Below the pieces are notes generated by a model. It was not told the origin of the DNA. It was given only the letters and a program-made list of their open reading frames with translations, and made no database searches. Shown one piece after another: positions 27,143 through 52,919 of a stretch of 64,000 bases of DNA. The DNA lies in contig CM097887.1 of assembly GCA_044892525.1 (NCBI GenBank), positions 93,846,397 to 93,910,396 of the forward strand, in the 5' to 3' direction. A program made the position numbers and the translations under genes. This DNA is from Schmidtea polychroa (taxonomy: Eukaryota). Each line of letters begins with the position of its first letter. Within the stretch, counting starts at the first letter, position 1.

Positions 27143-27895
27143 CTATTGTTTCTCCCATTCAGCGTCGGCGAATAATTCGTCGAGGTTAAAAAACTCGGAA
27201 GCGTTCTCTTCCCACGTTACGCCAGCGGCTGATATGATTCGTGCTGAGGGTCCCGTTGTTAGGTCGATGGACACGTGAGAGTTACCACCGTTGGTTGAAT
27301 CCTCTATTGATGGGATGTTTGGCTTTGTAGTGGCGCGTTCGCGCTGTCTCTTCTTGCGCTCTGCACGAGAGAGTTGTTTGCGCTTGGGTTTGCTTGAAGA
27401 TGCCACTTGCAGAGGGGTGACTGATACAGATGGACTAGCAGTGGGGGGCTTACTGGTACCCGTGACGACAACATCTGGTCGCTTGGGGGACAATTCGTTT
27501 TCGACGCAGTCTTGGCACGGTCTCTTGAACGGTGGAGATGGATTCGAGGAAAGGTTGTGATGAGGCGGAAAGATGTCATCGGCCTCTCGGATGGGAATCT
27601 GCACTATTTTTCGGGTTGTAGCCGCCTGCACGTAAACCTTATGCAGTGCCTCGGATTGTTCTCTGATTAGACTTCTTTGGGCACGGCTCTCAGATATTAG
27701 CGCGTCCCGGCAATGCTCGCTACGATCGAGCTTCTTTTGGATCTCCTTCATCCGAGCGGGACTAAACCATGTCCCTTCCAGCTCGTCGATTTTTCGTTTA
27801 TATCGACCGATCTGGGCTTGAAGATCTTTAATCACTGCATTTTTATCTGAGCAGGAGAAGCAGGGACGTAGAGCTGATTTGTTGTTTGGTAACAT
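27143..27895 (-). CDS. LTR-encoded 250-aa protein (3' LTR copy), putative nuclear regulator
   Basis: Coiled coil, PCQDC, KPKRKQLSRAERKKRQRER basic patch, acidic aromatic tail; conserved in the sister LTR. Confidence 0.75.
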   Translation of the reverse strand: MLPNNKSALRPCFSCSDKNAVIKDLQAQIGRYKRKIDELEGTWFSPARMKEIQKKLDRSEHCRDALISESRAQRSLIREQSEALHKVYVQAATTRKIVQIPIREADDIFPPHHNLSSNPSPPFKRPCQDCVENELSPKRPDVVVTGTSKPPTASPSVSVTPLQVASSSKPKRKQLSRAERKKRQRERATTKPNIPSIEDSTNGGNSHVSIDLTTGPSARIISAAGVTWEENASEFFNLDELFADAEWEKQ

Positions 27896-30350
27896 AATGG
27901 ATGGCTAAAGAAGAAAACTATGGTGACTATATCTAAAAATTTCGGATCAGATATACGGTTTATCCGCTATTGGATACTTAGTGCTGGAAGAAAACAAGAC
28001 GAGTCGACGAAACAGGATCCCTCCCTTCACCCTTGATTACTAATATTTTACGTATCCTTTACAGAAAATTATTCCCCAACGCCCTGATTGCTTCCCTGAC
28101 GAATGCAAATTATTTGTAAAAATTTTAATTTTCGTCTATCGCGTTCGAGTTGGATTTCTATCTATCGCACATAAAGGCAATTTACGGATTTATTCATGCC
28201 GGAGCGAATAAACCTATTTCATTACAAATACACTATACTACACTTCGTTTAAATTTCGCTGATTATTTGTTGTTATTCTAATGCAAAATAAGGTTTTTGG
28301 ACCAGATGCAACTAGTAAAAACTTGCACCCTTACCTCAAGTAGCGGAATAAGTAATAACTCGTAATTTCGTATAAACTATACGTCACTATTTTATGATTA
28401 CCCCTTATCCATACCATACGGTGATATCGTCGTAGAAATATAGCATCGTAAAAATATTGTAATTACATAATAATTTGTTATCGGATTTAGTTTTCTATTA
28501 CAATACGTCATTTACAGGGAATATGAGAAATTTAACTACAATATTACTAGCTATTTTATAACCCAAAAATTCCTGTAGATGCTTTAGTTAATTTAAATTT
28601 GGCTCAAAGGCTACTACTATTATTTGTAACATCTAATTAGAATTACGATAAACCTCTACAACACTTAGGTGAAACTTCCTATGGTTTAGTTATAAAGTTT
28701 GGTTTGAATTTTCGGTTATTAATTAAAATACCCCTTCAACAATTTCGATTTTTATTTAGAATATTTAATTTAAGCAAAATTATCTTTAATGAGTGCACTT
28801 TAGAGAGTCTCTTATCTTAGTAGTCGGTTACTGGTTATTTTGGCTTATCTTTTTAGTGGTACGAATGACCTTCATCAGTAGTGAAATTTAAGAGTCAGTC
28901 ATCTGGAAGTCACATCTCATGTCAGCATTATCTAATATGACCACTGATTACTACTCACACACTAAGAATCCTAGAGAGGGTGACACATGGCGGCATTCCC
29001 TGCGGTGAGAGGCACTCGGAATGATTCTGCTGTTTCTCATGCATATTTCTGACCGGATGACGCTACTCATAGTTATGTTAGCAGTATGTCTGTATGTATG
29101 GGTGCCTGTTCGATGGAAATTTTATCGGTAACTATCAACCGTACTGAGCGAACTGCAAATGTTACATCGCGTGTCGATTCCCATCTGAGCTTATGATGTT
29201 GGATTTATTTACTACGACTCGTAATTTCCTCAATATTGGATGTTTTTGAACGATGGGAGATCTCTACGAACCAGCCAACTAGACTCTATGAAGCATATTT
29301 CAGTAGTGGATATTTCGACGCAACAGCATGAAAATTATTCAATGGGTATTACCAGATTTTGTTAATATATGTGATTGAATACAGTATTATTGTGGTTTTA
29401 TGTTTTACTTTTCCTTTATTGTAAATTCCTCATCATATGCTAAGATTTGGATGTCGCATCTGAAAGAGATGACCTAAATTAGATTTACTTTTTCAAAAAT
29501 CTACCGAATGCAATTTCAACTTCTCGATATGTTAGAAAAACCAGCGATGGATGTTTAATGGTATTTTCCCCCACATGGTAAGTTCGGATTTATAGACAGA
29601 AGTGGCATGAATGTCTTATAAGACGACTCTGGACAATACAGAGTTAATATGAGAACTCCCTCAGTCGCTGTGAAGCACATATCCTATTTTCGAAAATTTC
29701 ATAAGGTTTCCTTTCGGTCTATATTTCGGTACTCCGACAGATTTTAAGTCCTTCAGCAATTGGACCCGTGAAGAAGCCTTCACATTTCGGCCCAATCTAG
29801 CTGCGTGATTGAAATACTCCATGTCCACCGGCTGAGCTCCCGAAGGCACCTCGCACCATGACATGGAGTATCTCAACGCCACGTTTCTCGTTAATATTAG
29901 AAATCATAAAACTATCACTTCAAAATAAATATCCATAAAAGTTATGTAAGAGTTCACCTGTTACCAATAAATACTTTTAAACATTTAAATTATTTACTTT
30001 ATCAAAATCGTTATTCAGGATCAAATGAAAAGAGAGTCTGGTTAAATTTAAAAGTTTAATTGCTCATTAAATATACATATTTACTATTAACTTCGAAAAA
30101 CAATATCATAAATAAAAATCCCTTACTATGGAATTAGGCTGAATCGGAAAATTAACGTTAGTCGTTCCAAATTAGTCTGATGATGGTTCGTCGAATGTCG
30201 ATTGCTGTGACTGATTTCGAATTGCTGTGAAGTTTTTCGAATTAACTGTTGCTCTACTTGTATTGCTGATCCTTGAAATAAGTCTCCGTGAGTTGTAGAT
30301 GTCTATGAAATGCTCGGGGTTAACAGTAAAAACAGTAAACATTTTTTCTT

Positions 30351-30434
30351 ACCTATGAAATGCTCGGGGTTAACAGTAAATTTAATGTTTTTGGTAGTTG
30401 TATATATATCAAATTCTTATTTGTGCGGACCAAT
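30351..30434 (-). promoter_or_regulatory. LTR promoter module: CCAAT box, TATA-like run, then splice donor AG/GTAAG (copies at 56662-56745 and solo LTR 25324-25458)
   Basis: GCGGACCAATCAGA-TTGAGTACCGC conserved between diverged LTR families; TATATAA in the solo LTR; donor ~50 nt downstream of the TATA in both. Confidence 0.65.
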
Positions 30435-30996
30435 CAGAGTTGAGTACCGCTTATTTCTATTAATTTAATATAATTTTCTTGTTTTTAGGTTGTTTTCTCC
30501 TTATTTTCTTTATTTTTAATATGTTTTTCTATTTATTTCCTTAATTTCCTTATTATTTCTTGAATTCCTCTTTATTTATTTGTCAACTTGTTCTATTTTA
30601 ATCTTTTCTTAATTTTATTTTTTGTTTTAATTCTTATGTCTTACTTATTATTTTCCTTATATCTTATTCTATTTTATTTCTGATTTTATTTGTTTTATTA
30701 TTATTTTTCTTAATGTTCTACTTCCCTACTTTCCTATTTTTCAACGATTAAATTTTCGACTCAGCCCAACAAATCACTCGGGGACCCATCAAAATTGCGT
30801 CCCGCAATTGCATAATTAACTTAATTCATTCATTCAAAAAAAATATAACACGAACACGGAAAATTATACAACAATGATAAAAATTTTATTGTAAGATCAA
30901 GGTCAAAGCAAGACCAAGCAAGTATCACTTAAGGTGATAGTTTGTACATACAATAAAAGTTTCCACATATAACAACACAAATGTTTGAATTAGAGT

Positions 30997-31638
30997 TTAT
31001 GAACTGTTAACCATTGATGCTTCTGCTGGCGGCTGTTGGTTGGTTTGGGTATTGATGTTGAGATAGGTCTGACTATTAGATTTCGGCTGGATTGGTTGAT
31101 TACTCGGGGTTCGAGGTCGGTTAAGATTTGTCAGGGGCACTTCTTGAGGATTTTGGTTCGAGGTTACTCTTATTGATGTCGAGACTCTACATCTATTTCG
31201 AACTTCGTAAATTTTCATGAATATTGGTAGACATAGGAGGAGGGTTTCTGCGATCACCACATATATGAGATAATGGGTGTCATTGATTTCGGGAGGTATT
31301 TTTGGCTTTTCTACCAGATTTCCAAAATTCTCTTGTTGCATTTGTTGTTCCAACTGGTCGAATTGTTGAATTTGTTCGAGGATTTGTTTGTTTATCATTT
31401 TACAAATGGGATTCTTTTTACACATTGTTTGGATGTTGTTGATGTGTGATCGGGTTGATTGAATGGTTTGGATGATATGGGTTTTTACGGTCATCGGGTA
31501 TGTGCATTGACTGGATTCTTGTTTAGGTTCTTGATTTTGATTTCGGTAATCTCGTACGATTTTCGGTTGGGCGTCTATTTGTTTGCTCTCCATCAGAATC
31601 ATCAATACCATCATTGTTATCATCATCTCGCCTCGCAT
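30997..31638 (-). CDS. Accessory type I membrane protein (signal peptide, helical ectodomain, TM, tail)
   Basis: MMITMMVLMILM signal, TM YLIYVVIAETLLLCLPIFM; likely start MRGEM after an acceptor. Confidence 0.7.
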   Translation of the reverse strand: MRGEMMITMMVLMILMESKQIDAQPKIVRDYRNQNQEPKQESSQCTYPMTVKTHIIQTIQSTRSHINNIQTMCKKNPICKMINKQILEQIQQFDQLEQQMQQENFGNLVEKPKIPPEINDTHYLIYVVIAETLLLCLPIFMKIYEVRNRCRVSTSIRVTSNQNPQEVPLTNLNRPRTPSNQPIQPKSNSQTYLNINTQTNQQPPAEASMVNSS

Positions 31639-31693
31639 GATACTATTATACATTCATTATGTTTATTTACAATTGGTTTTAATGACCCTTAAT

Positions 31694-32392
31694 TTAATGG
31701 TTCTGATTTGGATTATTTTCGCCGATTCTCATCAAGGTGGACTCTGCTTTAATTACCCTGTGTCTTAACTCGGGCAGCATTTCCAATTGTCGGTCTTTTT
31801 CACGGGCTTCTCTCTTTAGATGTCTAATTTCTTTTTCCAAGCGTCTAATTTCTTCCCTTTTCTTTTCAAGGTTTCTTTTTAGCTCGATTTGTAGGAGATC
31901 TTGTTCGTTTTCTTGCAGGTAATTTTGTTGTTGATGTTTTCTTTCTATTTCTCTATATTTGCGGACCCACTTCCTCATTTCTTTACTTTCCCGTTGGTTT
32001 TCTTCTAGTTGTCGTTTTAATTTATTTATAGCTGTTTGGCGCTCCTTCGCCTCAGTTTTCCAGTAGTCTTGGATTACCTCCTTTGCTTTGAAGCTTGCCC
32101 TTTCTTTCCATAGTTCTTCCGCTATCTTTTCCCAGTTTTTCCCTCGCTTCCTTTGTTCGTGTAGCCATTCATTTTCCTCTTCCGTTTCTCTTTTTATTTC
32201 CCCCAACGCTTCGCACTCTTTCTTTAACACCTTTATCATTTTCCGGTCCTCCAGGTATTTGTTTATTAATCTCCCGTTTTCGTATTTCTCTTCCCGTAAC
32301 TCGGCCTTTAGCGTTTGGGTTTCTGTTGTTTCTGCCTCAATCTCTCCCTCTTCTACGTCGCTCATAATTTCTATCATTTCCTCGATTTTCAT
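31694..32392 (-). CDS. Accessory coiled-coil protein (likely start MKIEEM)
   Basis: Long E/K/R heptad-rich ORF with element-like codon usage; acceptor 2 nt before the ATG. Confidence 0.7.
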   Translation of the reverse strand: MKIEEMIEIMSDVEEGEIEAETTETQTLKAELREEKYENGRLINKYLEDRKMIKVLKKECEALGEIKRETEEENEWLHEQRKRGKNWEKIAEELWKERASFKAKEVIQDYWKTEAKERQTAINKLKRQLEENQRESKEMRKWVRKYREIERKHQQQNYLQENEQDLLQIELKRNLEKKREEIRRLEKEIRHLKREAREKDRQLEMLPELRHRVIKAESTLMRIGENNPNQNH

Positions 32393-32560
32393 ATCTATAA
32401 TATGTACAGTTAATGGTGCGCTATAGTGCGACTTATACGTATACATTGATATAAAATTTAATAGTTTGGGTTACAGTCCCTTGAATACTTTTACAATACT
32501 TTAATTTTTTTGTTTGGGATATACGTCCCGGTTTTTAGTTTTTCATCTTTTCATCCACCC

Positions 32561-33616
32561 TCATACGAAGGTTTCCTCCTGGCCTACATAACCTTCATCA
32601 CTATCGACCGCGGAATGTAACTGTATCGCAATAGGGTCGTATGGTAGGTAATATTGGGGAATTTGAGCTCTCAATTCACTAACTTCGTCTCTTAGAGCTC
32701 GAGTGATATTCAATTCCTCGTCGAGCAGATAGGTGAGATACCTTGTCTCTTCATCTTTTGCCTCTATCTGTTTGTCTAGGGCTTTGATTTTCTCGTCGCC
32801 CTTCCATTTTTCAATTTCTATTTCTAAGTTTTTAATATTTTCGGTGTACATTTTCCTTTCGTTTTCTAATTTTCTGTTTTTTCCCGCTAGGACCATGTTT
32901 CTTTGTTCCAGCGATCCTTGTAATCCATTAAGGTCTCTTTTCATCTCTTCTACCTGATTTACTAATTCCACAACCCGTCCCGCTTGTTGGGTTATCATCT
33001 CTTCCATTGCGGCATTCTCGTGCTCTCTTATGTCGCACTTCATTGCCAAATGTCGCTCAAACTCCATAGCCTTTGTTTGCCAGGTTTGGCTTCGGGCGGC
33101 GACCTTTCTCAACCTTTTCAATTCTTCCTTTATTATTAAATTCTCCTCCCATTTACCTTGTTCGCTTTCGTATCCGAGTCTCATGGGCAATTCTTTCATC
33201 TCTTTTTTCATTTCTCTGTTTTGTCTTTTCCATTTTCTCGCTTCTGCCACTAAGTGCATCATTTTCCTGTCTTCTATTTGCTTTTCCGCTTCGCGCTTGG
33301 TGTTCTCATCGGTAAGTCTCTTTCTCGCTTCCTGCACTAGCTGCTTTAAGTAGTGGCTGTGTGCTTCTTGGCGGGTATTTTCCAGTGACGCCCATTTTGA
33401 TGCTCTTTTGCATGCTTCTGCTTCCGCTCTTAAGTTGTGTATTAACCATTGGTATTGACCATTCTCATCTTCTCTAGTTTCTTCGATGTGATTTCGGGTG
33501 AGATTAGTTAGTTGGAACATTACTTTGTTCCATTTTTTGTTATGTTCTCGGGGAATTTGTGTCTTGTTGACCTTGGTTGGGTCTATCGCAGTTTCGGTTA
33601 TTTTCTCTTGTGTCAT
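32561..33616 (-). CDS. Accessory coiled-coil protein, 351 aa
   Basis: Uninterrupted heptad-rich ORF; acceptor 2 nt before the ATG. Confidence 0.72.
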   Translation of the reverse strand: MTQEKITETAIDPTKVNKTQIPREHNKKWNKVMFQLTNLTRNHIEETREDENGQYQWLIHNLRAEAEACKRASKWASLENTRQEAHSHYLKQLVQEARKRLTDENTKREAEKQIEDRKMMHLVAEARKWKRQNREMKKEMKELPMRLGYESEQGKWEENLIIKEELKRLRKVAARSQTWQTKAMEFERHLAMKCDIREHENAAMEEMITQQAGRVVELVNQVEEMKRDLNGLQGSLEQRNMVLAGKNRKLENERKMYTENIKNLEIEIEKWKGDEKIKALDKQIEAKDEETRYLTYLLDEELNITRALRDEVSELRAQIPQYYLPYDPIAIQLHSAVDSDEGYVGQEETFV

Positions 33617-33809
33617 CTCTAAATCATAGACATCGATTAATCTTTTTATTATGAAAAAGGAATTTATTCATTATTTACTGTTTCTTGGGGAATTTTCGCA
33701 TCATTTTTGGGTTTTCGTATTTAGGGTTTTCATACTATTATTATATAATATTTTATTGGTTATATACACCGATATATACAGATTATTATATACAACATTA
33801 TTCGATTGG

Positions 33810-35198
33810 TTACTCCGTTCTACCCTTCTCCTCTTTCCTCACGGTCATCTTGATATATATGGTATCATTTCTCGCCATATCTTCTACTCTTTGTTGTGAG
33901 ATGAACGTAGGTGCTCCTGTTGCTGATCCTTCTTCGTTGAGGGGCCTCTGGTAAGCTATTTGATTCCCCGTTGTTTTGAAGCTTTGCTCATGTATACTTT
34001 GGTTGCTCATCAGAGTAATATCGATTTTTGCCTGGAACGGCCATTCTAATATTTCGTCGTATTCTCCTTTACATAACAGAAAGAAAATCGAAAAGTGCGT
34101 ATCCAATCCGGTTCCGTCCCCGTTGGGATATATCTTCATTTTCATTTTGTACCCATTTTTCCAAGAATGGAATGTAGGACTTGTTATTCTTGTCTCTTCT
34201 CCGGTTTTTGCTTTTCGTATTCTTTCTTTTACTCCCGTTATTTTCCATATGTAGGGTGCTGTTGGGGTTATCTCATTTAGATTTATTTCCCGTATTTTCT
34301 GATGTAGCTCCTTGGCCTGATTATTACTAATTTCTGTTCGGTTTATTTGCATCTTTATGTTTGTTCGGGCTTCTTCGAACGCTTCCCTTTCTTCTAGTAG
34401 TTCTTTGACTAACACTTTCAACGATGTTATCTCTATCTCCATTTGTTTTACTTTCTCTTCGCTTTCTTGTAACGCAGTCGACCACATTTCTGCGTGAGTT
34501 GAAGCATTTTCTACTAAATGATGTGGTAACTCACCTCGGTGTAGTAGTTTCTGACAACCCCATCTACCTAGTACACATGTCATTCTTTTCTTTTCGCATT
34601 CCCTTAGATGCTGTGCCACCTTCATTATTTCCCCTTGGTTACATCCGTTTGGGCATTCCCCACTGAACTCCGCACATACTCTCTCCTCTTGGACATTGTG
34701 ATGTTTGAGGGTGAGATTTATCCTCGTATCTATTTCTCCACAGTGTTCACATCTTTCGAATCTCTCTTCACACTGCCTTTGATGCTCTTTTTCTTCGCTT
34801 GCTCGAATGGTTTTATGGCACCTTTCACACTGGCCAATTCTGTACATACATTCTCCCATATGTTGTACTACCTTCCATATTACTCCTTTCCATTCGCATG
34901 GGGCATTTTTGCATCCCAGGTTGGTGTTTAACATGTCTTTCACTGCGGCTTTATCCTCGTTAGTGTCTTCTAAACTCGATATTAGTGTCTCTTTACACAC
35001 CGGGCACCTCTGTGGTCTATTCTTTATTGCTTCACTGATACATTCTTTACATACTCTGCATCCACATTGCGTTTGGTGAGGTTCCTTTAACAACTTTTCA
35101 CATATTCCGCACATAACATGTTTGTGTATTCTGATCGTTGTAGATTTTCGGACTTGCTCGACAATCTCTCTGAACTCTTCTCTTTGTCGTTTATCCAT
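33810..35198 (-). CDS. TRAF-family protein (RING, TRAF zinc fingers, coiled coil, MATH), intronless
   Basis: CGICEKLLKEPHQTQCGCRVCKEC...CPVC; CKNAPCEWKG; CPNGC; MATH YIWKI...GYKM...YPNGDGTG...HFSIFF...GEYDEILEWPF. Confidence 0.93.
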   Translation of the reverse strand: MDKRQREEFREIVEQVRKSTTIRIHKHVMCGICEKLLKEPHQTQCGCRVCKECISEAIKNRPQRCPVCKETLISSLEDTNEDKAAVKDMLNTNLGCKNAPCEWKGVIWKVVQHMGECMYRIGQCERCHKTIRASEEKEHQRQCEERFERCEHCGEIDTRINLTLKHHNVQEERVCAEFSGECPNGCNQGEIMKVAQHLRECEKKRMTCVLGRWGCQKLLHRGELPHHLVENASTHAEMWSTALQESEEKVKQMEIEITSLKVLVKELLEEREAFEEARTNIKMQINRTEISNNQAKELHQKIREINLNEITPTAPYIWKITGVKERIRKAKTGEETRITSPTFHSWKNGYKMKMKIYPNGDGTGLDTHFSIFFLLCKGEYDEILEWPFQAKIDITLMSNQSIHEQSFKTTGNQIAYQRPLNEEGSATGAPTFISQQRVEDMARNDTIYIKMTVRKEEKGRTE

Positions 35199-35283
35199 TC
35201 TATAATTATATGTACAAATAGTTCTTATCGATACAGGTTCGATATTTTATTTACAATTATTTACATTTTAAGCTAGGTTTGGT

Positions 35284-35643
35284 TTAGGGTTCGGAAGAGT
35301 CGGCTTCGTGTCCGCTCTCCTCTCTATTCATTAGCCATTCCGACCAGTCTTCTATTTCTGTCTGTTCTGCTTCCTCCCTCATTCGGTCTATTTCAATTTC
35401 CTGCCGACGGCTATATTGGGTTATCCTCTCTATCTCTCTTTGCATTTGTTCTATTTTTAACCTCTGGTCTTCAATTATCTTCAAATAACTAAATCCTCTG
35501 TTCATACTCTCGATCAGGTTTCTGTGCATCGTCAGTCCTTGTTCTTGCAAATTGGACACTAATTGTGCTAATACGGCACATTGTTGCTTCCATAATTCTT
35601 CAGTTACTGTATTGTGGTTTATTTCGTTATTTCCTTGATCCAT
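35284..35643 (-). CDS. Small accessory coiled-coil protein (likely start MDQGNN)
   Basis: Heptad-rich with an acidic end; acceptor 2 nt before the ATG. Confidence 0.6.
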   Translation of the reverse strand: MDQGNNEINHNTVTEELWKQQCAVLAQLVSNLQEQGLTMHRNLIESMNRGFSYLKIIEDQRLKIEQMQREIERITQYSRRQEIEIDRMREEAEQTEIEDWSEWLMNREESGHEADSSEP

Positions 35644-35803
35644 TCCTAATTTATATACACTTTTCAACTCTTATGTAAATTTAATTTTATTTTATGATTC
35701 CCGTTATCGTATAATATTGATACCGCGCTTATATAAAGATATAGTACTGTTATATACATAAGATATACTTACTTTTTACAATTATATACAGTCATATTCC
35801 TTT

Positions 35804-37270
35804 CTATATACGTGAGTTTGGAGGGCGCTGAGCGTTCCAGGCCTCCACCCACTGTCCTTGTTTGATATCACTTGGTCGTTTCACTCGATGTTGGAAGTTT
35901 CTGATTCGGGTCATTTCTAGTTCTCCGCGATGTCGTTTATCCTTAATTATTTTTATTGTTCCCCCCGTTATGATTAGGAATGCCCCTGTTATTATTATCC
36001 CACTGATCCACATCATCTGCTTCACGCTTATACTCTCTGGTTTTTCCTTGTTTGTTAATGTTGATATCGCTTCTGTACTTTTCTCGTTTCCTCTTTTGCC
36101 ATTTCCTTTCATCATTTCCCGTATTCTTGCTATTTCCTCGTTCATACCCTCCTTTGCCATCTTTTGTATTTTTTCCATCTCTTCCTCCGAAACATAGTTG
36201 TCCTGAGCTTCCTCACCAGTTTTCTTGTGCTTTCCTCCTTCGTTCTTTTCGTCGTGGTTTTTTCTTTTCTTTCCTCTTTTCCCCGGGTATCGTCGGCATT
36301 CTCTTTTTGATTCATTTCTCCAGATACAAACCGTATATTCCTTCGGAGGCTGCTGCTGCGTCACATATTGATGGCATCTCTCACCCGGTCCTAATCTTGA
36401 AATACAGACTTTGTGCTCTTTTCTTGGTTGGAGCTGCGTTATTACTACTTCGCCACCTTTTCCTAGGTGTACCTCTTTTCCTTTGACGTTCGTTATTCTC
36501 TTCCCGTCTCGATTTCGGTATGCTTCTTGTATTCTTACTTCTGTTATTGGTTCTGTGGCCTCATTTATCAGTACTAGTTTCTGATACGCTCTAGACATGC
36601 ATCTTCCTAGTATGCACCTTTCCTTTAAGTCCCATTCTTCCTTTAAATCCCACTGCTGCTCTTGTGCTTGCTTTTTCTTTTCTTGCTTTAGTTCATCCTC
36701 TTTGCTATCTTGATTCTCCGCTTCTTTGGTTTCTTTTATCGTCCTCGTCCCTCCAGGAGCTGTTACTAACTCTATCATGGTAAGCATAATTATCATTAAT
36801 ATCATATTTGTCTCTATTTCTTTGTTAGTGAAAGGTAGGCATACCCTCTGTTTTCCATTATTCGGTTTTTCCTCCTCTTTGGTCTTAGTTCCCGGGCTGT
36901 TTCCCTCTCTTTTCGTATCCGAATCCTTGTTTTCCGGTTTACCCTCCTCCGGTTCTCTTTCCTCTTTATCCTCCTTTCGGCCTTTTCCGTTATTGTCATC
37001 GTGTTTATCTCCCCCGCTGTCGTTTAAAATGTCGTCCTCGACATTTATATCGTTCAATAATCTGCGATATGCTGTTAGCACTCTGTTTCTTGCTAATTTC
37101 GCTTCGAATTCAAACTCTTTTCTACCCGTTGCAGCATGTCTCTTTCTATTCCATTCTTTAACTAACTCTCTCAATTGCATACGACGATGTTTCCCAATTC
37201 GTTGTTGCTCGTTCTGATTTTGCGTGAATTTTAGGTCTTCTCTATTTAATACTATTAAAATAATTTTAGG
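35804..37270 (-). CDS. Membrane protein (ankyrin end, internal signal, FN3-like domain, TM); probable -1-frame continuation of the polyprotein
   Basis: Frame is open upstream of the ATG at 37180 and overlaps the polyprotein end; VITQLQPRKEHKVCI is FN3-like; two hydrophobic segments. Confidence 0.65.
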   Translation of the reverse strand, partial: PKIILIVLNREDLKFTQNQNEQQRIGKHRRMQLRELVKEWNRKRHAATGRKEFEFEAKLARNRVLTAYRRLLNDINVEDDILNDSGGDKHDDNNGKGRKEDKEEREPEEGKPENKDSDTKREGNSPGTKTKEEEKPNNGKQRVCLPFTNKEIETNMILMIIMLTMIELVTAPGGTRTIKETKEAENQDSKEDELKQEKKKQAQEQQWDLKEEWDLKERCILGRCMSRAYQKLVLINEATEPITEVRIQEAYRNRDGKRITNVKGKEVHLGKGGEVVITQLQPRKEHKVCISRLGPGERCHQYVTQQQPPKEYTVCIWRNESKRECRRYPGKRGKKRKNHDEKNEGGKHKKTGEEAQDNYVSEEEMEKIQKMAKEGMNEEIARIREMMKGNGKRGNEKSTEAISTLTNKEKPESISVKQMMWISGIIITGAFLIITGGTIKIIKDKRHRGELEMTRIRNFQHRVKRPSDIKQGQWVEAWNAQRPPNSRI

Positions 37271-38950
37271 CGTCCCCCCCTTAGTTGGGTATTCTTTACC
37301 ATCGCATTTTCTCCGTTTTCGTAGAATTCGTTTACATTTATCGCATATTTATTATTTTGTGGTACTCTCCAGGTTAATAATAATTTCATTGCTTCTAGAT
37401 TTTTCCGTACCGTATTCCATTGAAACTGAGATGTGTTTTTGCACATATTTTCAACTTCTTCTTTTGTCGCATTTTTGCAAATAAATCTGATCATTTCTAG
37501 GTTTGGCTGTATGGTTGCCCAGTCCAAGGTGGAATTTCCTTCATTGGACCTTTCGTCTAGTTTCGATCCTGATTGATGTAGGATGTGGAGTGTTTTTGGG
37601 TGTATTTTTGTTATAGCTGCATACATCATGGCGGTTTCGCCTTGTTCATTTTTCGTGTTGGTTTCCTCGCCCATATCTCCAAGGATTCTCACGATCGTTA
37701 TTGCTCTATTTTCTTTCGCTGCTAGTATTGCTTGTTGTAGGGGTGTTCGGGAATCCTTCGTTACCATCGTAAATGCTCGAGGCAAGAAGGTTTTGATTTT
37801 CCCGATATCTAAACCCGTGGTTTGATCTCTTGCGTATGTATGTACAGCTTTTATTATTTTTGACAATATTATTTCGTCTGACAACTCTAGCATTTCCTCA
37901 AAGAATACCTCTTTCGCTTTGCGTATTATTGCCTCCTGATCTATACTCATTGATTTGGTTTCGATGACGTTGTTTATGACCGTTTGGTTCGTTGTTGACT
38001 TTGATTCCCTGGATTTCTCATACCTTATTTTCGTTTTCTTTCCGTTTGGATTATTGATTCGTTCCTCTGCTGTAAGTATTTGGATAATATCCAGGTAATT
38101 CTCGCGGATGTTATTCATTGTGTCCATCATATATAACACACTTACCGTTTCCCAATATTTATTTCGTACTTGGTTAGTAAATTGGAATAGTGATTTTTCG
38201 AATGTGTCGATTCGCTTTTTTGTTAACTGTTCGTCTTTGTGATTTGTGAATTTTATCCCTCGTTCTAGTAATTGATTCGGGATTTCGAATAAATGATGTC
38301 CTTTCATAGCTTCTCTCATCAGCGTGTTCTCTCCTCTCGTGAACGCTTCGTTTACGTTGATCATATAATCGTTTCGAATTGGATTTCTCCATGTAATTAA
38401 TATTCCGGTAATTGTCGTCAGTTTTTCTTTGATCGCTGTTAGCAATCCATCATACATGTTTCCGACTTCCCGATTGTCCTCATATGATAGTAGTTCCATC
38501 AATGACGTGAACGCCTCGGTACTTCTCCCTCTGATAGCATGATGTAGAGCGTTTTTCCGCTCGTGGTCTTGTGTAGTTATTTTCGATCCGGTATCGAGTA
38601 ATGCGGTTATAATGTCTTTTGTTTTTCCTCTGTTTGCTGCTATCATTAATGGTGTGTAACCTTGGTTGTTTGTTTGTTCTGTTGATCGCTTGCAGTCGTG
38701 AAATGCTTCTATTGTTTCTAGTATTTGCTCGTTGTTACCTACTTTCATGAGTTTGTGTAATGGTGTGTCTCCGTAATGATCTGTTATTGTAAATAATATT
38801 GGCCATTGGCTTTTGACTACTCGCAATAATGGGTGTGTCCTTTCTCTATTTGCATAGTTCTCGATCATCGTCAATAATCCTCCTAATATTTCGAAATCTA
38901 ATCGATCTTTTGCCCATCCAGGTATTTTAATTTTTACCTCTTTTACAATC
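37255..38950 (-). other. Ankyrin-repeat region C-terminal to integrase
   Basis: GDTPLH, GYTPLMIAANRG, KNALHHA, SRTPLQQA, GETAMMYAA, GNSTLDWA. Confidence 0.88.
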
Positions 38951-41900
38951 TTTTCCGCTTCTGATGGTTGGATACCCAATCGTCCGGTGATCGGTTCTGC
39001 GAGTTGTTGCATCATGTTCATTCGGTAGGTTTGCGAACGTGTGGTTAATGTACGGCCTTCTGGTTGACTAGTGGCTGTTTTTGGAATTGATTTGCATCGT
39101 GCCACGTTTACGTATATTGGTCTGGTAAAGGGGTTATTTACCAATTTCACTCTTACATTAGTTTCGCCTACGAATAAGATCTCATATGGTCCTTTTCCGT
39201 TGCGTTGCAACTTTTTTGTGGTTCCTGGAATTAATTCCGGGGTTTCTATCATTACCCAATCACCTGTTTGGAACGTATGTTGCTTCACGTTTTTCTTTCG
39301 ATCGTGTAAATCTTTATAACTTTCCTGGTAGAACTTGATATTTAATCCCGCAGTTTCCCAAATTTCTTGCATTCTTTCCTTGAATTTCGTAACATAATCA
39401 TCGATCTCCATATACTGCGATATCGGTGGTTGGTATTCCAGGTCCATTGGCATATTACATTCTCTTCCGTACATTAATTTGAATGGGCTCATTTTCGTTG
39501 ATGCGTGAATCGACATTCTGTACGCCATAAGACATAGGTTTATATATTCATCCCAATCTCGTTGGTGACGGTCAACGTAGTTTGATAACATTTGTATAAG
39601 TGTTCCATTAAATCTTTCCGTCATCCCATTGGTTTGAGGGTGGTATGGAGATGTTCTTAGTTTTGCTATTTTGAAGTAATTTGTTACTTCGCTCATTATC
39701 TCACTCATAAAATTAGTTCCCTGATCGGTTAAGATTTGTTTTGGTGTTCCATATCGGCAACATATCTCTTCTACCAAAATTTTTGCGATTGTTTTAGCTT
39801 TTTGGTCTGGCATCGCGAATGCTTCTGGGAATTTCGTAAGAAAGTCTGTGATCACTAGAATGTAAACGTTTCCTTTATCTGACTCTGGTAGTGGACCAAC
39901 TACGTCCATGGATATCATTGTCATTGGTTCTATTGGTACTGGCATTGGTGTTAAAGGTGCTTTCCATTTCGATCCAGTATTCTTCCTGGTTGCACAAGTT
40001 AGACAATTTTTTACCCATTCAGTTACATCTTCAGTTAACGTAGGCCAAAAATATTTCTGTTTCATTCTTGCTAACGTCTTTTTCGATGACATATGTCCTC
40101 CCAATCTCCCATCGTGATATTGCGTTAGTAACTCTTTTCGTCGGTTTTCCGGTATACACATTAATCGTTTTTCCCCATCCATTATCAGCAACCAATCTTT
40201 CTCTATAATATATCGGTGTCGGTGTTTATCCATATGTTCTTTTAATTTTTGGTCTTTCGCATATACCTCTGTCTTTCCGGTTTTTACATAATCGATAATT
40301 TGTTTTAATTCCGCGTCCTCTTGTTGGTCCTTTCGTAATTGACAGAAATCCAAATCTTCCGCTACTATTAAGCATATGCGTTGCATTTCTGAATCCACCA
40401 AATCTGGGAAAATAAATCTTGACATACAATCGGCGTTGGCATTTGCTCTTCCCGCTTTGAATTTTATAAATGGGGAGTATTCTTGCAATTGCATGGCCCA
40501 TCGCATCAGTCTACTGGACGCTTCTTTATGTTGCCCTAACCACACTAATGGTTGATGATCCGTGGTTATGCATATCTCATGTCCCCATAGTAAATATCGG
40601 AAGTGTTTGATAGCTTGTATTATAGCCAATGCTTCTCGTTCTGTTACCGAATAGTTCTTTTCGTGCTTTTTGAATGTTCGACTGTAATACCCGATTACTC
40701 TCTCTTTTCCCTCATCGTCTAATTGTCCCAAAATCGCGCCTGCCGCGTACCCGCTTGCATCCGTTGCCAATAGAAATGGCTTCTTAAAATCTGGGTGTAC
40801 GAGGATAGGTGCTTCGATTAGCTTATCTCTCAGCGTTTCGAACGCCTGTTGTTGTTCTTTTTCCCAAATGAACGAAATATCCTTCTTTACTAATTCCTGG
40901 ATTGGTTTTGCAATTCCTGCATAATTTTTGATAAATTTGCGATAGTATCCGCATAATCCTAGAAATTCCTGAACTTGGGTGACCGTTTTCGGTGCGGGAC
41001 ATGTTTTTATTTTCTCAATGTTCCTTGGATCTGGCTCCTTTCCTTTAGCTGACACTATGTGTCCTAAAAACGTGACTTTTTCCTTTGCCCAATCGCATTT
41101 TGATGGTTTGAGTTTGAGTTTCCACTGTCTTAATCTAATAAATACGTTTCGGATATCTTCCAGATGTTGTTCAAATGTCGCTGAATAGATTAGTAAATCA
41201 TCAATATATACCATACATTGTTTGATTCCATGGGTGACAAAGTTCATACACCGTTGAAATGATGCTGGTGCGTTGGTCAGTCCAAATGGCATTTTCCTGA
41301 ATTGATATAGATCTCGTCCCAACGTGAAAGCTGTTTTCTCTTTGTCCTCATCTTTGACTTTAATCTGCCAGTATCCACTTTTTAGATCTAAAGAAGTAAA
41401 ATATGCTGCCCCTTGCAACATCAATAACATCTCATTGATGTCCGGCAATGGATAGGTATCTCTCTTGGTCACTACGTTTAACTTCCGATAATCGATACAG
41501 AATCGTTGGGTGCCATCTTTCTTTTTTACCATGACCACTGGGAATTGCCAGGGTGAGCAACTTGGTTCGATTACTTTTGCGTCCAGCATCTTTTGTACTT
41601 CTGCTTCGGCTATTTCTTTTTGCATTTCTGCTAGCTTGTATGGTCTTAATGCAATTGGAGTTTCATCTATGAGGGGTATTGCATGTAGGGTAACATCGCA
41701 TGTACCCAAGTCTAAGTCTGAGATGGCGAATATATCTTTATATTCTACCAACAATCGGTGTAATTTTTTCTTTTCATCATTCGTCAACAACATACTATCT
41801 ATTGTCCATAATTCATCATCTTTGATCATCTCGTTGGTCACTTTCGGTAATTCTATGTCCATCATTGGGGTCAATCTTCCCAATTTTTCGTTCTCATAAA

Positions 41901-44900
41901 TGATTTTGTCTTCTTCTTCGAAATTCGTGATGTTGAGCGGTATCACTCCTTCTTGGTTTATTGTTATTATTTCTCTTGCGAGTGGTAATTCTCGTCGCTT
42001 TTCGAATGACTTGCTTGGTTCAAAGATAACTTCTCCTTCCATACCCGTATCCACTTTTATCTGACAAATCATCTGCGATTTTGCTGGTACTATTATTTTT
42101 TCTGGACATCTGATGACTGCATTCACTTTGCATATTCTACCGGTTTTGTCTTTTAAACACATGGTTGTTAAGTCAATTACGACTTCTTTTAACAATTCTG
42201 GCATCAAATCCGTTCCGATTATGCATGGTACGCTAAGTTTTGGTATTACTGCCAAATACGTTTCAATTTCGTTGTCCTGGTATCTCAATGTAGTCCACCA
42301 TCTTCCGACCACGTCCACTGTTTCTTTACTACATGCTATGATGTGAATTGTTGTTGATTCGATATCCTTCCAGTGTTTACTGGGAATTTGATTAATCGCT
42401 ATCGCCGATACATTAGCTCCTGTGTCTATCATAGCATTGGTTTCTTGACCATTGATTTGGATCATGACTGTCACTGCTGGACCTCCAGGTAGACTCATTG
42501 CTGCGATTGTTCTTACGTCATCTGCTTGATCTACACTTTTGGTACGTCGTGTTGGCATATAATGCATACCGGGTTGACTCGGTAATTGCGGATACATATT
42601 TTGGGTCATGGTCAAAGCTGCTTGTGGTCCCACGATATCCGGTGGTATATAGCTTCCATTGGCGATCCAGGTGTTTGTCTTTTCCTTTTCCCAATATGGT
42701 GCCGTTTCCATTGGTTTTTCGTTTGGGTTTCTGTTTGGATAAAGACATTTATCGTTCCCGTTATCATCGTCGTCACTATCGCTGTTAGATGATTGGCTTC
42801 TAAATCGGTCCAAGAATTTTGGCTTATTCTTTTTCAATTGTCGTCTTGTTGCTTCATCGTACATTACTTTCCGGAATCGTCTGCCTACTTCTTCGTCGGT
42901 TCCTTTAATCTTTGTTAATATTTTAATCAATCGCTTTATCCGATGAATGTCTTTTGAGTGACCATGTAATACCATGGTTTTAGCTAAAAATGGTAAGAAG
43001 CCTACTATCATTTTCCAGTTAACTTTCTTTTCCCGCTTGTATATATCGAAACAAGCTAACATTTGTGTTAGTATTACTCTGACTATCTGAATTATGAGTA
43101 TGATCCCTAATATCCCGGCCATCATTTGTCCAAAAACTAAGAATCTTCCCCACATTGCTTTCATCATGTTTGACGTAGCTTGTTGAAAATGGTCTGGCGA
43201 TAATAGCAGCTCGTAATTCGGGCCTGATTGATAGTTTGTGCCCCCAGTTATTGTTACCATATTTGACAAAATGGATTCTCGTCTGGCTGGGAAGAGTACG
43301 TTAAGTCGTGCTGTTTCTAGATCTTCTGGGGAATACATACCACCGTTTGACACGTCTATAGGTTTGAAATCCAGCTCTGTGGCGAGTTCTATTAATCCAA
43401 ATTTCTTGGGTTCCTCGGATATGGTTTTTCCCGGTAACATCATCCATTTCCCATCGGGTCTTTCATACAAAGGTCCGTATGCATTAGAACAGTTAAAGAG
43501 ATTTGGGTAGAAACCCACTGGATTCATAATTCTAGTGACTGGTTGGACGAATCGATTTTGTCCTTTATAACGAATTTCTAATTCATTTGCACATCTCTTT
43601 TCGGGTAGTATGGATTTTTCTGGCATTCGTGCATACGTCTTGGTACACTGGTATGTGTACATCACTTCTCCTACCATTCTACCAAAGTGTCCATCTGGTA
43701 ATGGGAGTGATGGCATCGTGTTATCGGGGTGCGTTATCGCAATAGCTAGCTTTGTTTTCAATATTTCTTTATTCAATGAACAATCGTTTTGTATCAGATC
43801 GTAATATACTTTTTGCAAGGTCGTTTGTCCGCGATGAAATAGAAAATCCATTTTATTATTTGCATATAAGTACAGTTTTACGTCCTCCGTTGCTATCTTT
43901 CCCACTGCTCTATCGATTATTTGTCTCGACATATAGATACCTGCGTAATTGGTTTTATATACTATACTGTCACATTTGGTGGTTTCTTTTTCTTTGATAA
44001 ATCTCATACCTAGATCTGGATCGTCTGTGATTAATGCTGTTGGTGTCTTCTGCGTTGAAAGTCTCTTTTCTCTGGGAGATGGTGGCATTGGTTTTCCATT
44101 TCGCATTCTCACTCTGTCGTTTCCATCCTCGTCGTTCTCGTTCTCATATATTTCTCCTTTTACTTCATTGAACAAAGCACTTTTTAACAGTTGGAGTCGG
44201 CATTTTTGGGTATTAGCTTCATAGATTATAGTTGATACTCCTGTCCTGCATACGTTTTCTGTAGCTCTACACGCTGGGTTGGTCTTCATTTGGTAATTAT
44301 TTGCGTCAAATTGCGCTTCGTATTCTTTTAATTCGACCGTGTAAGACTCGATCACTACAACTCCCGATATTACCTCGCCTCGGATCGTATACGTACCTCC
44401 GTTACATGACCCATCTGATGATTTTACTTTTCCGGATACGTAAACACTTTCGGTTTTAATCATTCCAGTTTGTCCGTGAATTGTCACTCCGTTATGCATT
44501 TTTAGCGCTCCGGTTCTAAATAGCTCTTTACAATCCTCTCGTTGTATTGATACGATTTCTTTATCCAGACCGGGTAGTATAAGAGTCGAATACGAATATT
44601 GTCCACAGTAATATGCGAGTACCTTTTTTGATACTACGCATTCCCTTGCTTGCGTTCTGATGAAATCTGATTCTTGATATACATGGTAAGTAACTTTTGT
44701 TCTCACGATGTCCAATTTGTTGGGTGAGGCTTGTCTGCATTCTTCTATATCTCTCAATGAGTATTTATCTCTCATTATCATATTATCACAATCGTAGATG
44801 GTGAAACCTGTTGCTCCACTTGTGCACAACATCCATATCATCATAGTCATCATTAACGAATTTATTGATGCTTTTCTGCTTGCGGGATCTTTCATCGGTA

Positions 44901-47900
44901 GTTCCCATTCTAGTTCATTTAACAGTTTTTTCAATCTAACTTGCATCGACCTTTCTTGCTCATTTTTCCGTGGCGCTTGTATCAGTCTTTTCCATCCTCC
45001 TGCACGAATAATATGTGGTTCAATAGTATTCTCTATGATTGAAACGGTCATTTCCACATGATTTGCGAACTGTTTATTTGGTATTTTCCTCGCAGCTAGT
45101 CCCATCAAATTATACATCAAATACGTGATTACCACTAGGTGATGTTCGTCATCATTTGCATTTGTCGTGAGCTGCTCAATCACTCTCTTTGTTTCGTCCC
45201 AATCCGTTTTGGTGGTTTTCGTTTTCTCTTTGATTAACTTTGGGATTATCCCCGAAATGGTGTGCCATAATTGTCTAGCTTCCGTACTGGCTACTTTCCG
45301 TTGCCACAAACGTCTAAGTTGTGGGTTTGTTATTATTAACATATCTTTTAACAATTCTCGTATCCATTTTTCTCCTCTTTCGATCGTTGGTTGGGCTTCC
45401 TTTAGATCCCATACTATTTTATCCAATTTTTCTAATCGAACTTGCCCTTGTTCTTGCTTTAATTGTTCTTTGGTTTTGAACTCAGACTTTTCTCCTTGTT
45501 TCTTAGGTCTTCCTTTTGCCCGTTTTTCCATCATCGTTCCGGCTTCTCTGGTATTTTCGTAATTCGGATTTTTTTCGTTATCCGTTCTGGGTAATGAGCT
45601 ATCGTTATTTCTTAGCCACTCATTCCATTCGTCTATTATTTTGTCGGTTTGACTTTCTGGTGTGACTTTCGTTGGTTCTCTTTGCTTCTGGAATTGTTCA
45701 TCCGTTTCGGTTTCCGTAGTATTGTCGATGATTTCTTTGATGTTCAGTTTCGTTGGTTGTTGATAACTCGTTGATGGCTGGTTATTAGTCCACATTTCGG
45801 CTCCTGTCGGCCATCTCACTAATAGCGGTGATCTTTCTCCTGGTTCATCGTCACTATCTTCCAGGATTATCTCTTCGACTTCTTCAGTTTCATTAGATTT
45901 ACTTGGTGCTTTGTTCGGACTTGGAGTACTCAAACTGCCTTTTGTTGGTTTAATAATTTTACTTTTCCTTTTTAACGGTTTCCCCAACGTTTCTGCCATT
46001 GTTAACACATTTGTCTCTTCCAATCTCATGGGTGTTATCCCGACGTCTGCATTATCGTCTAGTGATTTTCCGAACAGTTGCAGATGGAATGGAGTTTCAT
46101 ATGCTAATTTCTTTTTTAATTCTCTAATTTTTGTTGTTGGATGCACCTCTAGTTCCTCGATGCTCTTGTCCGGATACTTGATTCGGATGTGATACCTCTC
46201 CTGGGTGTCTTGTGCCCATTCCTGATTTCTCCATTTTCGAATAATTTGTTCTAGCTGTTCTGGATACCATTCATTATATTGCCGGTATTCCTCTATTGCC
46301 TTTGCCATTCCTCTCAGATTGTGGATATTCTCTGATGTTTTTAAGATGATATTAGCCAACGCTACTACCTGGCGTTTTTGATTTTTCGCTCCCATTGCTA
46401 AAATATCGCCTAATTGTTTATATCTTTCTTTCTCTTCTCGTTCTCTTGCTTCCGTCGCTTCCTCGCCGTCCATATCAGCATATTCACGCTCCTTTTTCCT
46501 CATTGCATGAATATGTCTCGCTTCATTTTCGCTTTCTGATGTGACATCCGTCTCGCTTTCGTCATCTGATGTCTGTTCCCTTGCTTCCTCTTCATATTCT
46601 GGAGGTTCCTCTTCTTCTTCCTCCGATTCACTTTCTGTCTCACCAATGTCTGTTTCTACGAAGATTCCTTTCCGGATTTCCCATTCCTTATTTTCTGCAT
46701 TCCACACTCTTTCCCATGGGGTTCGTCTGCAGGATCTGGTATTTAATTTCGTGATTTTTCCTTGTAGCTCTTTTTCTTTTAACCATTGTTGGTGGATTTC
46801 AATTATTTCTGTAGATTTCTGATATAACGTTTTCATCCGGTCTCGTATTTCTTTTTGATAGGTTACATCTCTTGTTCGAAATTCATCCATTGGTACTATC
46901 CTGATTATCTGGTGATTGTCCCACATACCCATTTCGCTTAACGAGGTGTCGTCCTCCGCTCGTAATATTATCTTATCGTACATCATGACTACATCATCCA
47001 CCATACCATCACTACTTTCGCTACGTACCTTTTCCGTTATCTCTAGGTTTATTTTTGATACCAAGTCATCCACTGTACTCTGATTGCTCATTTTTATTCG
47101 TCGTTTTTCTTCGTTCGGTAACCATATGGTTATTTCCAACCTCTGTGGCTGGGTTTCTTTTAACCTTCCATATTTGTGGATCAAATTTATGGTTCTCCAA
47201 TCACTCATTCGGAGCATTTCTGTATCTCGCAACCGGCTCATTAGTTCGTACATGGCTGGGGCTCGTCTGGTGATGAGTAAATCCCAGTTGTCTTCTACTT
47301 GTTCTTGAATTTGTTTGATCAGCTTATCCAGGTTTCGTCTCAGAGTACATTGTTTTATTTGTTCTAATTTCAATTTGATATTAAAATCATATTCTGCCTT
47401 GGCATCTTTAGCCCAGTCGTAAAGGTTGGCTGGTTGTTTTTCTTTATGCAACTTCAGTATTTGCGTTTCTCCTGGCCATATTAGTGCATCTACTAAGTGC
47501 ATATCTGGTTTGATCTGTTCTCCTTGGTATTGATACAGATATTCTTTCTTTCTCGAACTTCCCAAATGTTCTCGTATCCAATCGAAAAGTTCGTCGGTGA
47601 CTGTATTTTTTATCCACATTCTTTCAAGTCCTCTACTCGTTCCAATTTTTATTACATACCGCGTGGTATCGGCCTGCTTCATTTTTTCCATATAGTTTTT
47701 TATAATTGGTTTTTCCTCGTTTGGTATTAGATCTTTCTCGTTTCTTTCCAATTTCATCACTTTTTGCACGAATCGCCTGAATGGTATTACGTCGATGAAC
47801 TCTTGGTTCCTCACTACTACTGGGAGTATTTCGGCTACCTGTTTTATCGCTTCCTCCCTTGCTTTTCTCAACTTTATTTCGATATCTTCGTCTTCACTTT

Positions 47901-52894: not shown

Positions 52895-52912
52895 ATCCCG
52901 GCTGAGCCCCCA
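52895..52912 (-). promoter_or_regulatory. Primer binding site, tRNA-Pro type
   Basis: Sense TGGGGGCTCAGCCGGGAT vs the MLV tRNA-Pro PBS TGGGGGCTCGTCCGGGAT (16/18); 7 nt from the 5' LTR. Confidence 0.85.
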
Positions 52913-52919
52913 ATAATCA

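What the first reader, a model, noticed from the sequence alone, without database searches (positions are those of the whole stretch)
37200..37345. Polyprotein probably continues past its stop via a -1 shift at a G7 run
Seen: adding one G to CTA AGG GGG GGA (run at 37274-37280) gives LRGGTPKIILIVLNREDLKFTQNQNEQ. This completes the ankyrin repeat (compare RGKTKDIITALLDT) and parallels the upstream duplicate ITWRNP...GENTLM...LLERGIKFTNHKDEQ. The -1 frame is open from ~37345 to 35804, and unlike the other accessory ORFs this one shows no adjacent acceptor. Inference: programmed frameshift, inactivating 1-nt deletion, or homopolymer assembly error; the full product would be ~4620 aa ending in a second membrane protein. 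The purine run could also act as a central PPT.
Basis: partly seen in the sequence, partly recalled or inferred. Interest (0 to 1): 0.7.

Follow-up and report, generated by a model that had tools for sequence, protein, structure and literature searches.

The report
Broken reading frame in giant retrotransposon
A giant, recently inserted virus-like retrotransposon has its long protein cut off mid-domain at a run of seven Gs, most likely an ordinary copying or sequencing slip, not a built-in ribosome switch.

Summary
The frame break is real in this sequence. A 30,474-bp minus-strand Ty3/gypsy element with identical 4,163-bp LTRs, built like planarian Burro elements, encodes a gag-env-pol-ankyrin polyprotein that stops at 37255, inside the last repeat of a duplicated ankyrin block. 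The -1 frame (37348-35804) carries a peptide resembling the missing half of that repeat, keeps weak coding periodicity, and ends in a signal-like segment, an ectodomain and a transmembrane helix. The two frames were therefore probably one ORF. The break region holds the only G run of 7 or more in 18.5 kb of coding sequence. Programmed frameshifting is poorly supported: the heptamer has G where eukaryotic sites usually have A or U, and the 3' RNA is unusually unstructured. A central PPT is unsupported. No sister copy or read was reachable, so an assembly error cannot be told from a real slip. Best reading: unprogrammed homopolymer indel (0.65). It would not inactivate the element, because all replication domains lie upstream.

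The parts
52920..57082 (-). 5' LTR, 4,163 bp, TG...CA ends
   Evidence: identical to the 3' LTR, 0 differences
26609..30771 (-). 3' LTR, 4,163 bp; element inserted in a (TTA)n microsatellite
37255..49656 (-). polyprotein ORF from first Met, 4,133 aa: gag, CCHC knuckles, fusion glycoprotein, PR, RT, RH, IN, two ankyrin blocks
43036..44055 (-). core of the in-frame env (PF24664 Monjiviricetes_fusion, E 4.8e-70) between gag and PR
38248..38805 (-). ankyrin block A, uninterrupted duplicate; its last repeat is modelled as helix-loop-helix
   Evidence: (pLDDT 54-68 in that part)
37282..37785 (-). ankyrin block B, cut inside its last repeat
37274..37280 (-). G7 run, likeliest site of the frame break; part of the non-canonical heptamer 37279-37273
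37255..37348 (-). overlap of the polyprotein frame and the -1 frame; the break lies within it
37181..37273 (-). 31 codons in the -1 frame before the first usable Met; resemble the second helix of the cut repeat
37240..37271 (-). acceptor-like AGs at 37252, 37242 and 37240, overlapping the polyprotein stop; candidate start of a separate spliced exon (inferred)
   Evidence: ranks 14, 17 and 43 of 1,848
35804..37348 (-). -1-frame ORF, 514 codons; Met57 at 37180, Met182 at 36805; no Pfam family, no homologue found
36755..36817 (-). signal-peptide-like hydrophobic segment inside the -1-frame ORF (inferred)
35963..36016 (-). predicted transmembrane helix of the -1-frame ORF
30997..35670 (-). five downstream accessory ORFs (128, 478 TRAF-like RING-MATH, 368, 258, 218 codons), each with an AG 0-4 nt before an ATG

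Best explanation
The element's polyprotein normally runs on through ankyrin block B into a C-terminal extension of about 490 aa. This copy carries an unprogrammed small frameshifting indel in or next to the G run. It arose either as real polymerase slippage, most simply during reverse transcription in this copy's lineage (about 0.37), or as a long-read consensus error in the longest G homopolymer (about 0.28). Shown: the frames, the duplicate, the homology switch, the absence of canonical signals. Inferred: that intact copies are continuous; that the extension is a type I membrane protein freed by an internal signal segment, as env appears to be; and the cause of the indel. If real, the lesion removes only the tail and leaves gag, env, PR, RT, RH and IN untouched, so the copy could still have transposed.
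For: The polyprotein stops inside an ankyrin repeat whose duplicate continues as helix-loop-helix, and the continuation is found only in the -1 frame. The 93 nt between the run and Met57 have no stop in the -1 frame and score +2.4 bits as coding against non-coding, whereas 5 of 5 true spacers score -12 to -89 in every frame. This is the only frame break in 18,464 nt of coding sequence, and that sequence has just 2 runs of 7 or more; 63 of 18,040 53-nt windows (0.35%) hold such a run. No canonical heptamer, no 3' structure, and no Rfam frameshift element (1 match, unrelated, E 0.27). Described Burro ORF1s are single ORFs of 4,873 and 5,140 aa (PMC6431247), nearer to about 4,620 than to 4,133. 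Homopolymer length is the main error mode of HiFi reads (PMC7545148).
Against: No sister copy, read or transcript was seen: homologue searches gave nothing related. The homology across the break is modest: p 0.14 in the anchored test, no spanning HMM domain, and the element's own helix-2 segments score only -11.5 to +6.9 on the same profile. The +2.4-bit coding score is below the 5th percentile (3.5) of 131 training windows, and the best change point is the stop, not the run. The 0.35% figure uses a bracket and a run length chosen after seeing the data; with runs of 6 or more it is 5.5%. Identical LTRs leave little time for a post-insertion mutation. The LTR pair (31 runs of 5 or more each) and 21 other coding runs of 6 or more show no slip, so the assembly is otherwise accurate. 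A good acceptor-like site sits right at the stop.
Confidence: 0.65

Rival explanations
1. Fixed fission. The family split the tail off the polyprotein, and the downstream ORF is now a sixth 3' accessory gene, translated from Met57 (or Met182) on its own spliced mRNA through the acceptor at 37252 or 37242.
For: These AGs rank 14 and 17 of 1,848; the six acceptors next to accessory ATGs rank 5-122 in leave-one-out; only 5 of 958 AGs inside the polyprotein ORF score as high as 37252; there is no ATG before Met57. Distance is no bar: the strong acceptor-like site at 50259 lies 603 nt before the first polyprotein Met with no ATG between. The codon change point peaks at the stop. Burro modules are described as alternating between polyprotein subdomains and accessory ORFs (PMC6431247).
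Against: The 31 codons before Met57 still look like in-frame ankyrin coding sequence and not like the A/T-rich spacers. Ile/Leu/Val codons of a hydrophobic helix create T-rich, TAG-bearing sequence by themselves (inference). The other six accessory ORFs have the AG 0-4 nt from the ATG, against 60-71 nt here. The acceptor matrix rests on 9 sequences and no acceptor is shown to be used.
Confidence: 0.15
2. Programmed or tolerated recoding. All copies share the G7, and a minority of ribosomes (or of slipped transcripts) enter the -1 frame on the G string without an RNA structure, giving a short major and a long membrane-anchored minor polyprotein.
For: G_GGG_GGA is in phase and allows tandem re-pairing on paper. 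Very low-level frameshifting on a G run is documented for herpes thymidine kinase (PMC5009743). Structure-free, protein-stimulated sites exist (PMC7618472). A G run of 7 is uncommon in this A-rich ORF: 8.6% of 1,000 codon shuffles have one. Identical LTRs show a very recently mobile lineage.
Against: Y is G, whereas eukaryotic sites usually have A or U. The 3' RNA has MFE 0 over 40 and 60 nt and only 3-8% of 74 coding windows are as weak; z is +2.2 and +1.5 against shuffles for the two 3' windows and +0.5 for the window spanning the run. The -1 frame being open 25 codons upstream is a 30% event. The major product would end in half an ankyrin repeat. The herpes case is described as a very low-level compensation for an indel, not a programme. 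27 other in-phase XXXYYY heptamers occur in the same ORF, 12 of them canonical.
Confidence: 0.12
3. The purine run is a central polypurine tract priming a second plus strand, and the frame break is a side effect.
For: It is a 10-nt purine run inside an unusually long (22 kb) internal region.
Against: The internal region has 104 purine runs of 10 or more; no purine tract precedes the 3' LTR for it to copy; the run lies 65% along the element, downstream of integrase. That known cPPTs copy the 3' PPT is recalled, not from a call.
Confidence: 0.03
4. The frames were never joined: the resemblance after the run is chance, and the downstream ORF simply overlaps the polyprotein end.
For: Weak spanning statistics (p 0.14; no spanning HMM hit); 31 open codons arise in spacer-like DNA about 6% of the time.
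Against: Three overlapping tests put the -1 peptide in the top 0.6-2.8% of windows at exactly the position predicted by the duplicate. The segment is unlike all 5 spacers.
Confidence: 0.05

Closest known systems
Burro / GYPSM1 giant gypsy-like elements of dugesiid planarians (PMC6431247, section 7 read in full; Grohme 2018 and Lee 2026 not held)
   Same: Over 30 kb, multi-kb LTRs, one huge ORF1 with gag, CCHC knuckles, env in frame between gag and PR, RT-RH-IN, ankyrin repeats, and a MATH/TRAF module; weak ubiquitin-like (E 0.004) and Bcl-2-like (E 0.03) hits in the expected order.
   Different: ORF1 is 4,133 aa as it stands, against 4,873 and 5,140. MATH/TRAF is a downstream accessory ORF here, and is in ORF1 or upstream in those described. 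No BIR or dUTPase hit. No frameshift inside an intact ORF1 is mentioned in the section read.
Platyhelminth GAG-ENV-POL errantiviruses, Smed_errantivirus_1-6 (PMC13524379; passages and supplement rows seen)
   Same: Gene order and gB-type env; by eye the env is closest to Smed_errantivirus_5, with long shared stretches.
   Different: Identical to none of the 6 env fragments shown. The comparison was by eye only. The rows seen do not cover the region after integrase.
Canonical eukaryotic -1 programmed frameshift (PMC7618472, PMC5009743; passages)
   Same: Overlapping 0 and -1 frames; an in-phase heptamer of the form XXXYYYZ; a retroelement host.
   Different: Y is G, there is no 3' structure, and the site lies after integrase inside a folded repeat instead of at a gag-pol boundary.
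Herpes simplex thymidine kinase G-string indels with compensatory frameshifting (PMC5009743 passage; primary paper not held)
   Same: A run of about seven Gs in a coding region that is both an indel hot spot and a possible weak shift site.
   Different: Unrelated gene and host. There the wild-type frame is known; here it is only inferred and no leak was measured.

Membership tests
Canonical -1 PRF signal | Overlapping open -1 frame at the site | tested here: met
Canonical -1 PRF signal | X_XXY_YYZ with Y usually A or U and Z not G | tested here: not met
   G_GGG_GGA at 37279-37273, Y = G (definition)
Canonical -1 PRF signal | Stimulatory RNA structure 5-9 nt downstream | tested here: not met
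   pseudoknots and long-range pairing are not modelled by these folds
Canonical -1 PRF signal | Conservation of site and overlap across copies and relatives | not testable with these tools
   no related sequence found
Canonical -1 PRF signal | Trans-frame product | not testable with these tools
   needs experiment
G-string compensatory frameshift (herpes TK type) | G run of about 7 at an out-of-frame junction | tested here: met
G-string compensatory frameshift (herpes TK type) | Measurable low-level full-length product | not testable with these tools
   needs experiment
Central polypurine tract | Near-copy of the 3' PPT at about mid-genome (definition recalled) | tested here: not met
   no purine tract before the 3' LTR; 104 purine runs of 10 or more; position 0.65
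Burro-type element | Total over 30 kb, internal region up to 25 kb | tested here: met
   30,474 bp, internal 22,148 bp (definition)
Burro-type element | Single ORF1 with gag, CCHC knuckles, in-frame env before PR, then RT, RH, IN, ankyrins | tested here: met
Burro-type element | MATH/TRAF module in ORF1 or an accessory ORF | tested here: met
   33810-35246, PF21355 E 6.6e-27
Burro-type element | Ubiquitin/SUMO-like and BCL2-like domains between gag and env | tested here: inconclusive
   PF00240 E 0.0039 and PF00452 E 0.03, both under the curated cut-offs; no PDB sequence match for the Bcl-2-like part
Burro-type element | BIR domain and dUTPase-like domain | tested here: inconclusive
   no Pfam hit; a RING-only ORF lies in the leader; the dUTPase-like call in the paper came from HHpred, not available here
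Burro-type element | Planarian host | tested here: inconclusive
   A/T-rich flanks and env likeness by eye; the host gene search gave no usable taxon
Burro-type element | RT/IN phylogeny within the Burro clade | not tested

The most novel reading that the evidence does not exclude
The G7 is conserved in the family and acts as a structure-free shift site downstream of integrase. It would set the ratio between a short polyprotein and a long form ending in a second, family-less membrane protein, a kind of C-terminal recoding I did not find described for Ty3/gypsy elements.
Probability: 0.12. Interest if true: 0.7.

Novelty: new member of a known kind. Interest (0 to 1): 0.25.

Why it matters
On the likeliest reading this is an annotation point: the polyprotein of this Burro-type family is probably about 4,620 aa and ends in a second predicted membrane protein with no known relative, and this copy or assembly has a slip. 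That extension is a modestly interesting lead, because Burro elements are thought to be integrated proviruses and one Burro1 accessory gene is reported to protect planarian stem cells (second-hand, PMC13465017). If the G run were a conserved shift site, it would be an unusual recoding signal, testable cheaply from existing reads.

Tried and rejected
Homologues of the downstream ORF: none among 5,434 longer candidates or 8,000 similar-length candidates; no usable Atlas hit; 0 of 9 exact look-ups found; shorter proteins were not searched. Homologues of the ankyrin region: 9 hits and the best 150 of 23,306 were generic multi-ankyrin proteins; none of the 158 fetched matched the element's RT-IN, env or downstream ORF at E 1e-3. 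No second internal copy lies in the window. A fibronectin-III-like look of the ectodomain (my impression by eye) was not supported: no such Pfam hit at E 5, no PDB sequence match, single-sequence model pLDDT 41, not searched further. A short intron bridging the two frames: 10 GT-AG pairs of 40-150 nt fit the phase, none with an acceptor score above 2 (that run had two acceptor positions slightly off, corrected for the ranks; the bridging count was not rerun). cPPT rejected. The BLAST mismatch between the LTRs at 26607 lies outside the LTR. The host gene search gave no useful taxon. The prokaryotic genome scan and the complex prediction were not used, as neither bears on the question. Metagenome and viral contig collections stayed unchecked. 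Literature: searches showed no report of recoding in Burro ORF1, but Grohme 2018, Sacco 2022, Pan and Coen 2012 and Lee 2026 were not held; their text and supplements may bear on this.

Full report
Context. The finding lies in a minus-strand LTR element spanning 57082-26609 (30,474 bp) with two identical 4,163-bp LTRs, inserted in a (TTA)n microsatellite. One frame is open from 50001 to 37258. Pfam finds gag, CCHC knuckles, a Monjiviricetes-type fusion glycoprotein (E 4.8e-70), protease, RT, RNase H, integrase and ankyrin repeats in that order. Size and order match the Burro elements of planarians as described in PMC6431247 (section 7 read in full), where ORF1 is 4,873 or 5,140 aa with env in frame between gag and pol. 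By eye the env is closest to Smed_errantivirus_5 in the supplement of PMC13524379 and identical to none of the 6 shown. The host is inferred to be a planarian; this is not shown (one search gave no usable taxon).

The observation. The run of seven Gs is at 37280-37274, the polyprotein stops at 37257-37255, and the -1 frame is open from 37348 to 35804. The end of the polyprotein consists of two homologous ankyrin blocks, A and B (score 141 against a maximum of 55 in 500 shuffles). In a model of block A the last repeat is helix-loop-helix (pLDDT only 54-68 there, and the alignment of 25 ankyrin sequences biases the model; the fold search returns ankyrin proteins). In block B the frame ends a few residues after the first helix. 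The paired motifs are in phase in A and out of phase in B; the data do not fix the sign or size of the lesion.

Is the -1 peptide the missing half? Three overlapping tests say probably. Against the tail of A it scores 26, the other frames 9 and 11, and 0.6% of the element's windows do as well. On a helix-2 profile from 559 unrelated ankyrin repeats it scores 2.9 against -14.2 and -16.6, top 1.0%. Against the element's own 7 repeats, 5 of 2,000 shuffles and 2.8% of 3,013 stop-free windows reach it. Two tests fail: the anchored alignment with X at the break has p 0.14, and a local HMM finds no domain spanning the break. A three-periodic codon model rates the 93 nt between the run and Met57 at +2.4 bits as -1-frame coding, while all 5 true spacers score -12 to -89 in every frame; +2.4 is nevertheless below the 5th percentile of 131 coding windows. 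The same model brackets the frame change to about 37308-37255 and peaks at the stop, so it does not pin the break to the run. A start at Met182 alone is excluded as the whole story, since 156 open codons upstream would arise about once in a million in spacer-like DNA.

Why the run is the likely site. This is the only frame break in 18,464 nt of coding sequence. Only 2 runs of 7 or more lie in that sequence, and 0.35% of 53-nt windows contain one, or 5.5% for runs of 6 or more. The thresholds were chosen after seeing the data.

Programmed shift. The in-phase heptamer is G_GGG_GGA. In eukaryotes Y is usually A or U and a structure follows 5-9 nt downstream (PMC7618472, passages). Here the 3' RNA has MFE 0 over 40 and 60 nt and is weaker than 92-97% of 74 coding windows. 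Rfam finds nothing relevant. These folds do not model pseudoknots or protein stimulators. A precedent for leakage on G runs exists: indels in a run of 7 Gs in herpes thymidine kinase are partly compensated by very low-level frameshifting (PMC5009743, passages; only the first 300,000 of 449,034 characters are held). A G7 is also uncommon in this ORF (8.6% of 1,000 codon shuffles). I give recoding 0.12.

Separate transcript. Six accessory ORFs have an AG 0-4 nt before an ATG; Met57 does not. But with a matrix from 9 acceptor candidates, AGs at 37252 and 37242 rank 14 and 17 of 1,848, within the range of the six (5-122 in leave-one-out), and no ATG lies between 37252 and Met57. The strong site at 50259 is 603 nt from the first polyprotein Met, so distance is no bar. 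The T-rich tract can equally be a by-product of Ile, Leu and Val codons (inference). All acceptors are inferred from sequence. I give fixed fission 0.15.

Mutation or error. Identical LTRs mean a very young insertion and little time for mutation afterwards, but a slip during reverse transcription or in the parent lineage leaves the LTRs identical. It would be tolerated because every replication domain lies upstream (inference). An assembly error is plausible because homopolymer length is the main HiFi error mode (PMC7545148, passages); the technology behind this window is unknown. Against an error, the LTR pair and 21 other coding runs of 6 or more show no slip. Sister copies would decide, but none was reachable: searches found no relative of the junction or of the downstream ORF, and these searches are weak evidence of absence. 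Metagenome and viral contigs stayed unchecked.

The extension. After the repeat come a charged low-complexity stretch, a hydrophobic segment at 36817-36755, a Cys-bearing basic region and a transmembrane segment at 36016-35963. The first segment resembles by eye the Met-rich leader before env and the N-terminus of the last accessory ORF, although those two did not pass my hydropathy threshold. A type I membrane protein released by signal peptidase is my inference. Its fold is unknown.

Central PPT. No purine tract precedes the 3' LTR, 104 purine runs of 10 or more occur in the internal region, and the run lies 65% along the element. Not supported.

Literature. Seen: PMC6431247 (passages and section 7), PMC13524379 (abstract, passages, supplement rows), PMC11410931, PMC5009743, PMC7618472, PMC7545148, PMC8532177 and PMC13465017 (passages only). 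Not held: Sacco 2022, Grohme 2018, Pan and Coen 2012, Lee 2026. Searches showed no report of recoding in Burro ORF1; with the main Burro papers unread, that is a weak negative.

Verdict. The frame break is real in this sequence and the two frames were probably one ORF. An unprogrammed homopolymer indel is the best explanation (0.65), ahead of fission with a spliced transcript (0.15), recoding (0.12), chance overlap (0.05) and cPPT (0.03). The element is a new member of a known kind. Interest 0.25; 0.7 if the site proves to be conserved recoding.

Noticed in passing
window 30772-30830 (-): No polypurine tract precedes the 3' LTR; a short G+C-rich inverted motif lies there instead, although the identical LTRs imply recent replication.
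   Followed up: partly
window 52895-52919 (-): The putative primer-binding site starts 7 nt after the 5' LTR and resembles a tRNA-Pro site (recalled, not tested); the six S. mediterranea errantiviruses are listed with tRNA type 'none'.
   Followed up: no
window 52099-52581 (-) and 25854-26402 (+): A RING-finger ORF lies in the element's leader behind an acceptor-like site; a second RING ORF, 37% identical over 79 aa, lies just outside the 3' LTR on the other strand.
   Followed up: partly
window 50968-51520: Array of 74-bp tandem repeats in the leader.
   Followed up: no
window 27143-27904 and 53454-54215 (-): Each LTR carries a 253-codon ORF with no Pfam family; a 67%-identical relative lies at 22304-22993 in what looks like a diverged LTR of a related family (about 21849-25736).
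   Followed up: partly
window 33810-35246 (-): Complete TRAF-like ORF (RING, zinc-finger-like repeats, coiled coil, MATH) placed downstream of the polyprotein, unlike the Burro layouts described.
   Followed up: partly
window 30997-33667 and 35284-35670 (-): Four accessory ORFs with no family match at E below 0.001; three look coiled-coil-like by eye and the last has a leader-like N-terminus and a transmembrane segment.
   Followed up: no
window 14351-15600 (+): Host CBP/p300-like exons (KIX, bromodomain) with introns of about 50-70 nt.
   Followed up: partly
window 16865-18398 (+): Two overlapping intronless ORFs beside a gap; by eye they recall a Polinton-like capsid and cysteine protease pair (recalled; the first has no Pfam hit, the second was not scanned).
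   Followed up: no
window 1699-2583: 170-bp inverted repeats, 99% complementary, 545 nt apart; possibly a miniature DNA transposon.
   Followed up: no
window 18419-18611, 20272-20403, 20662-20790, 21277-21573, 60399-60531: Five N runs of irregular length, all outside the element.
   Followed up: no
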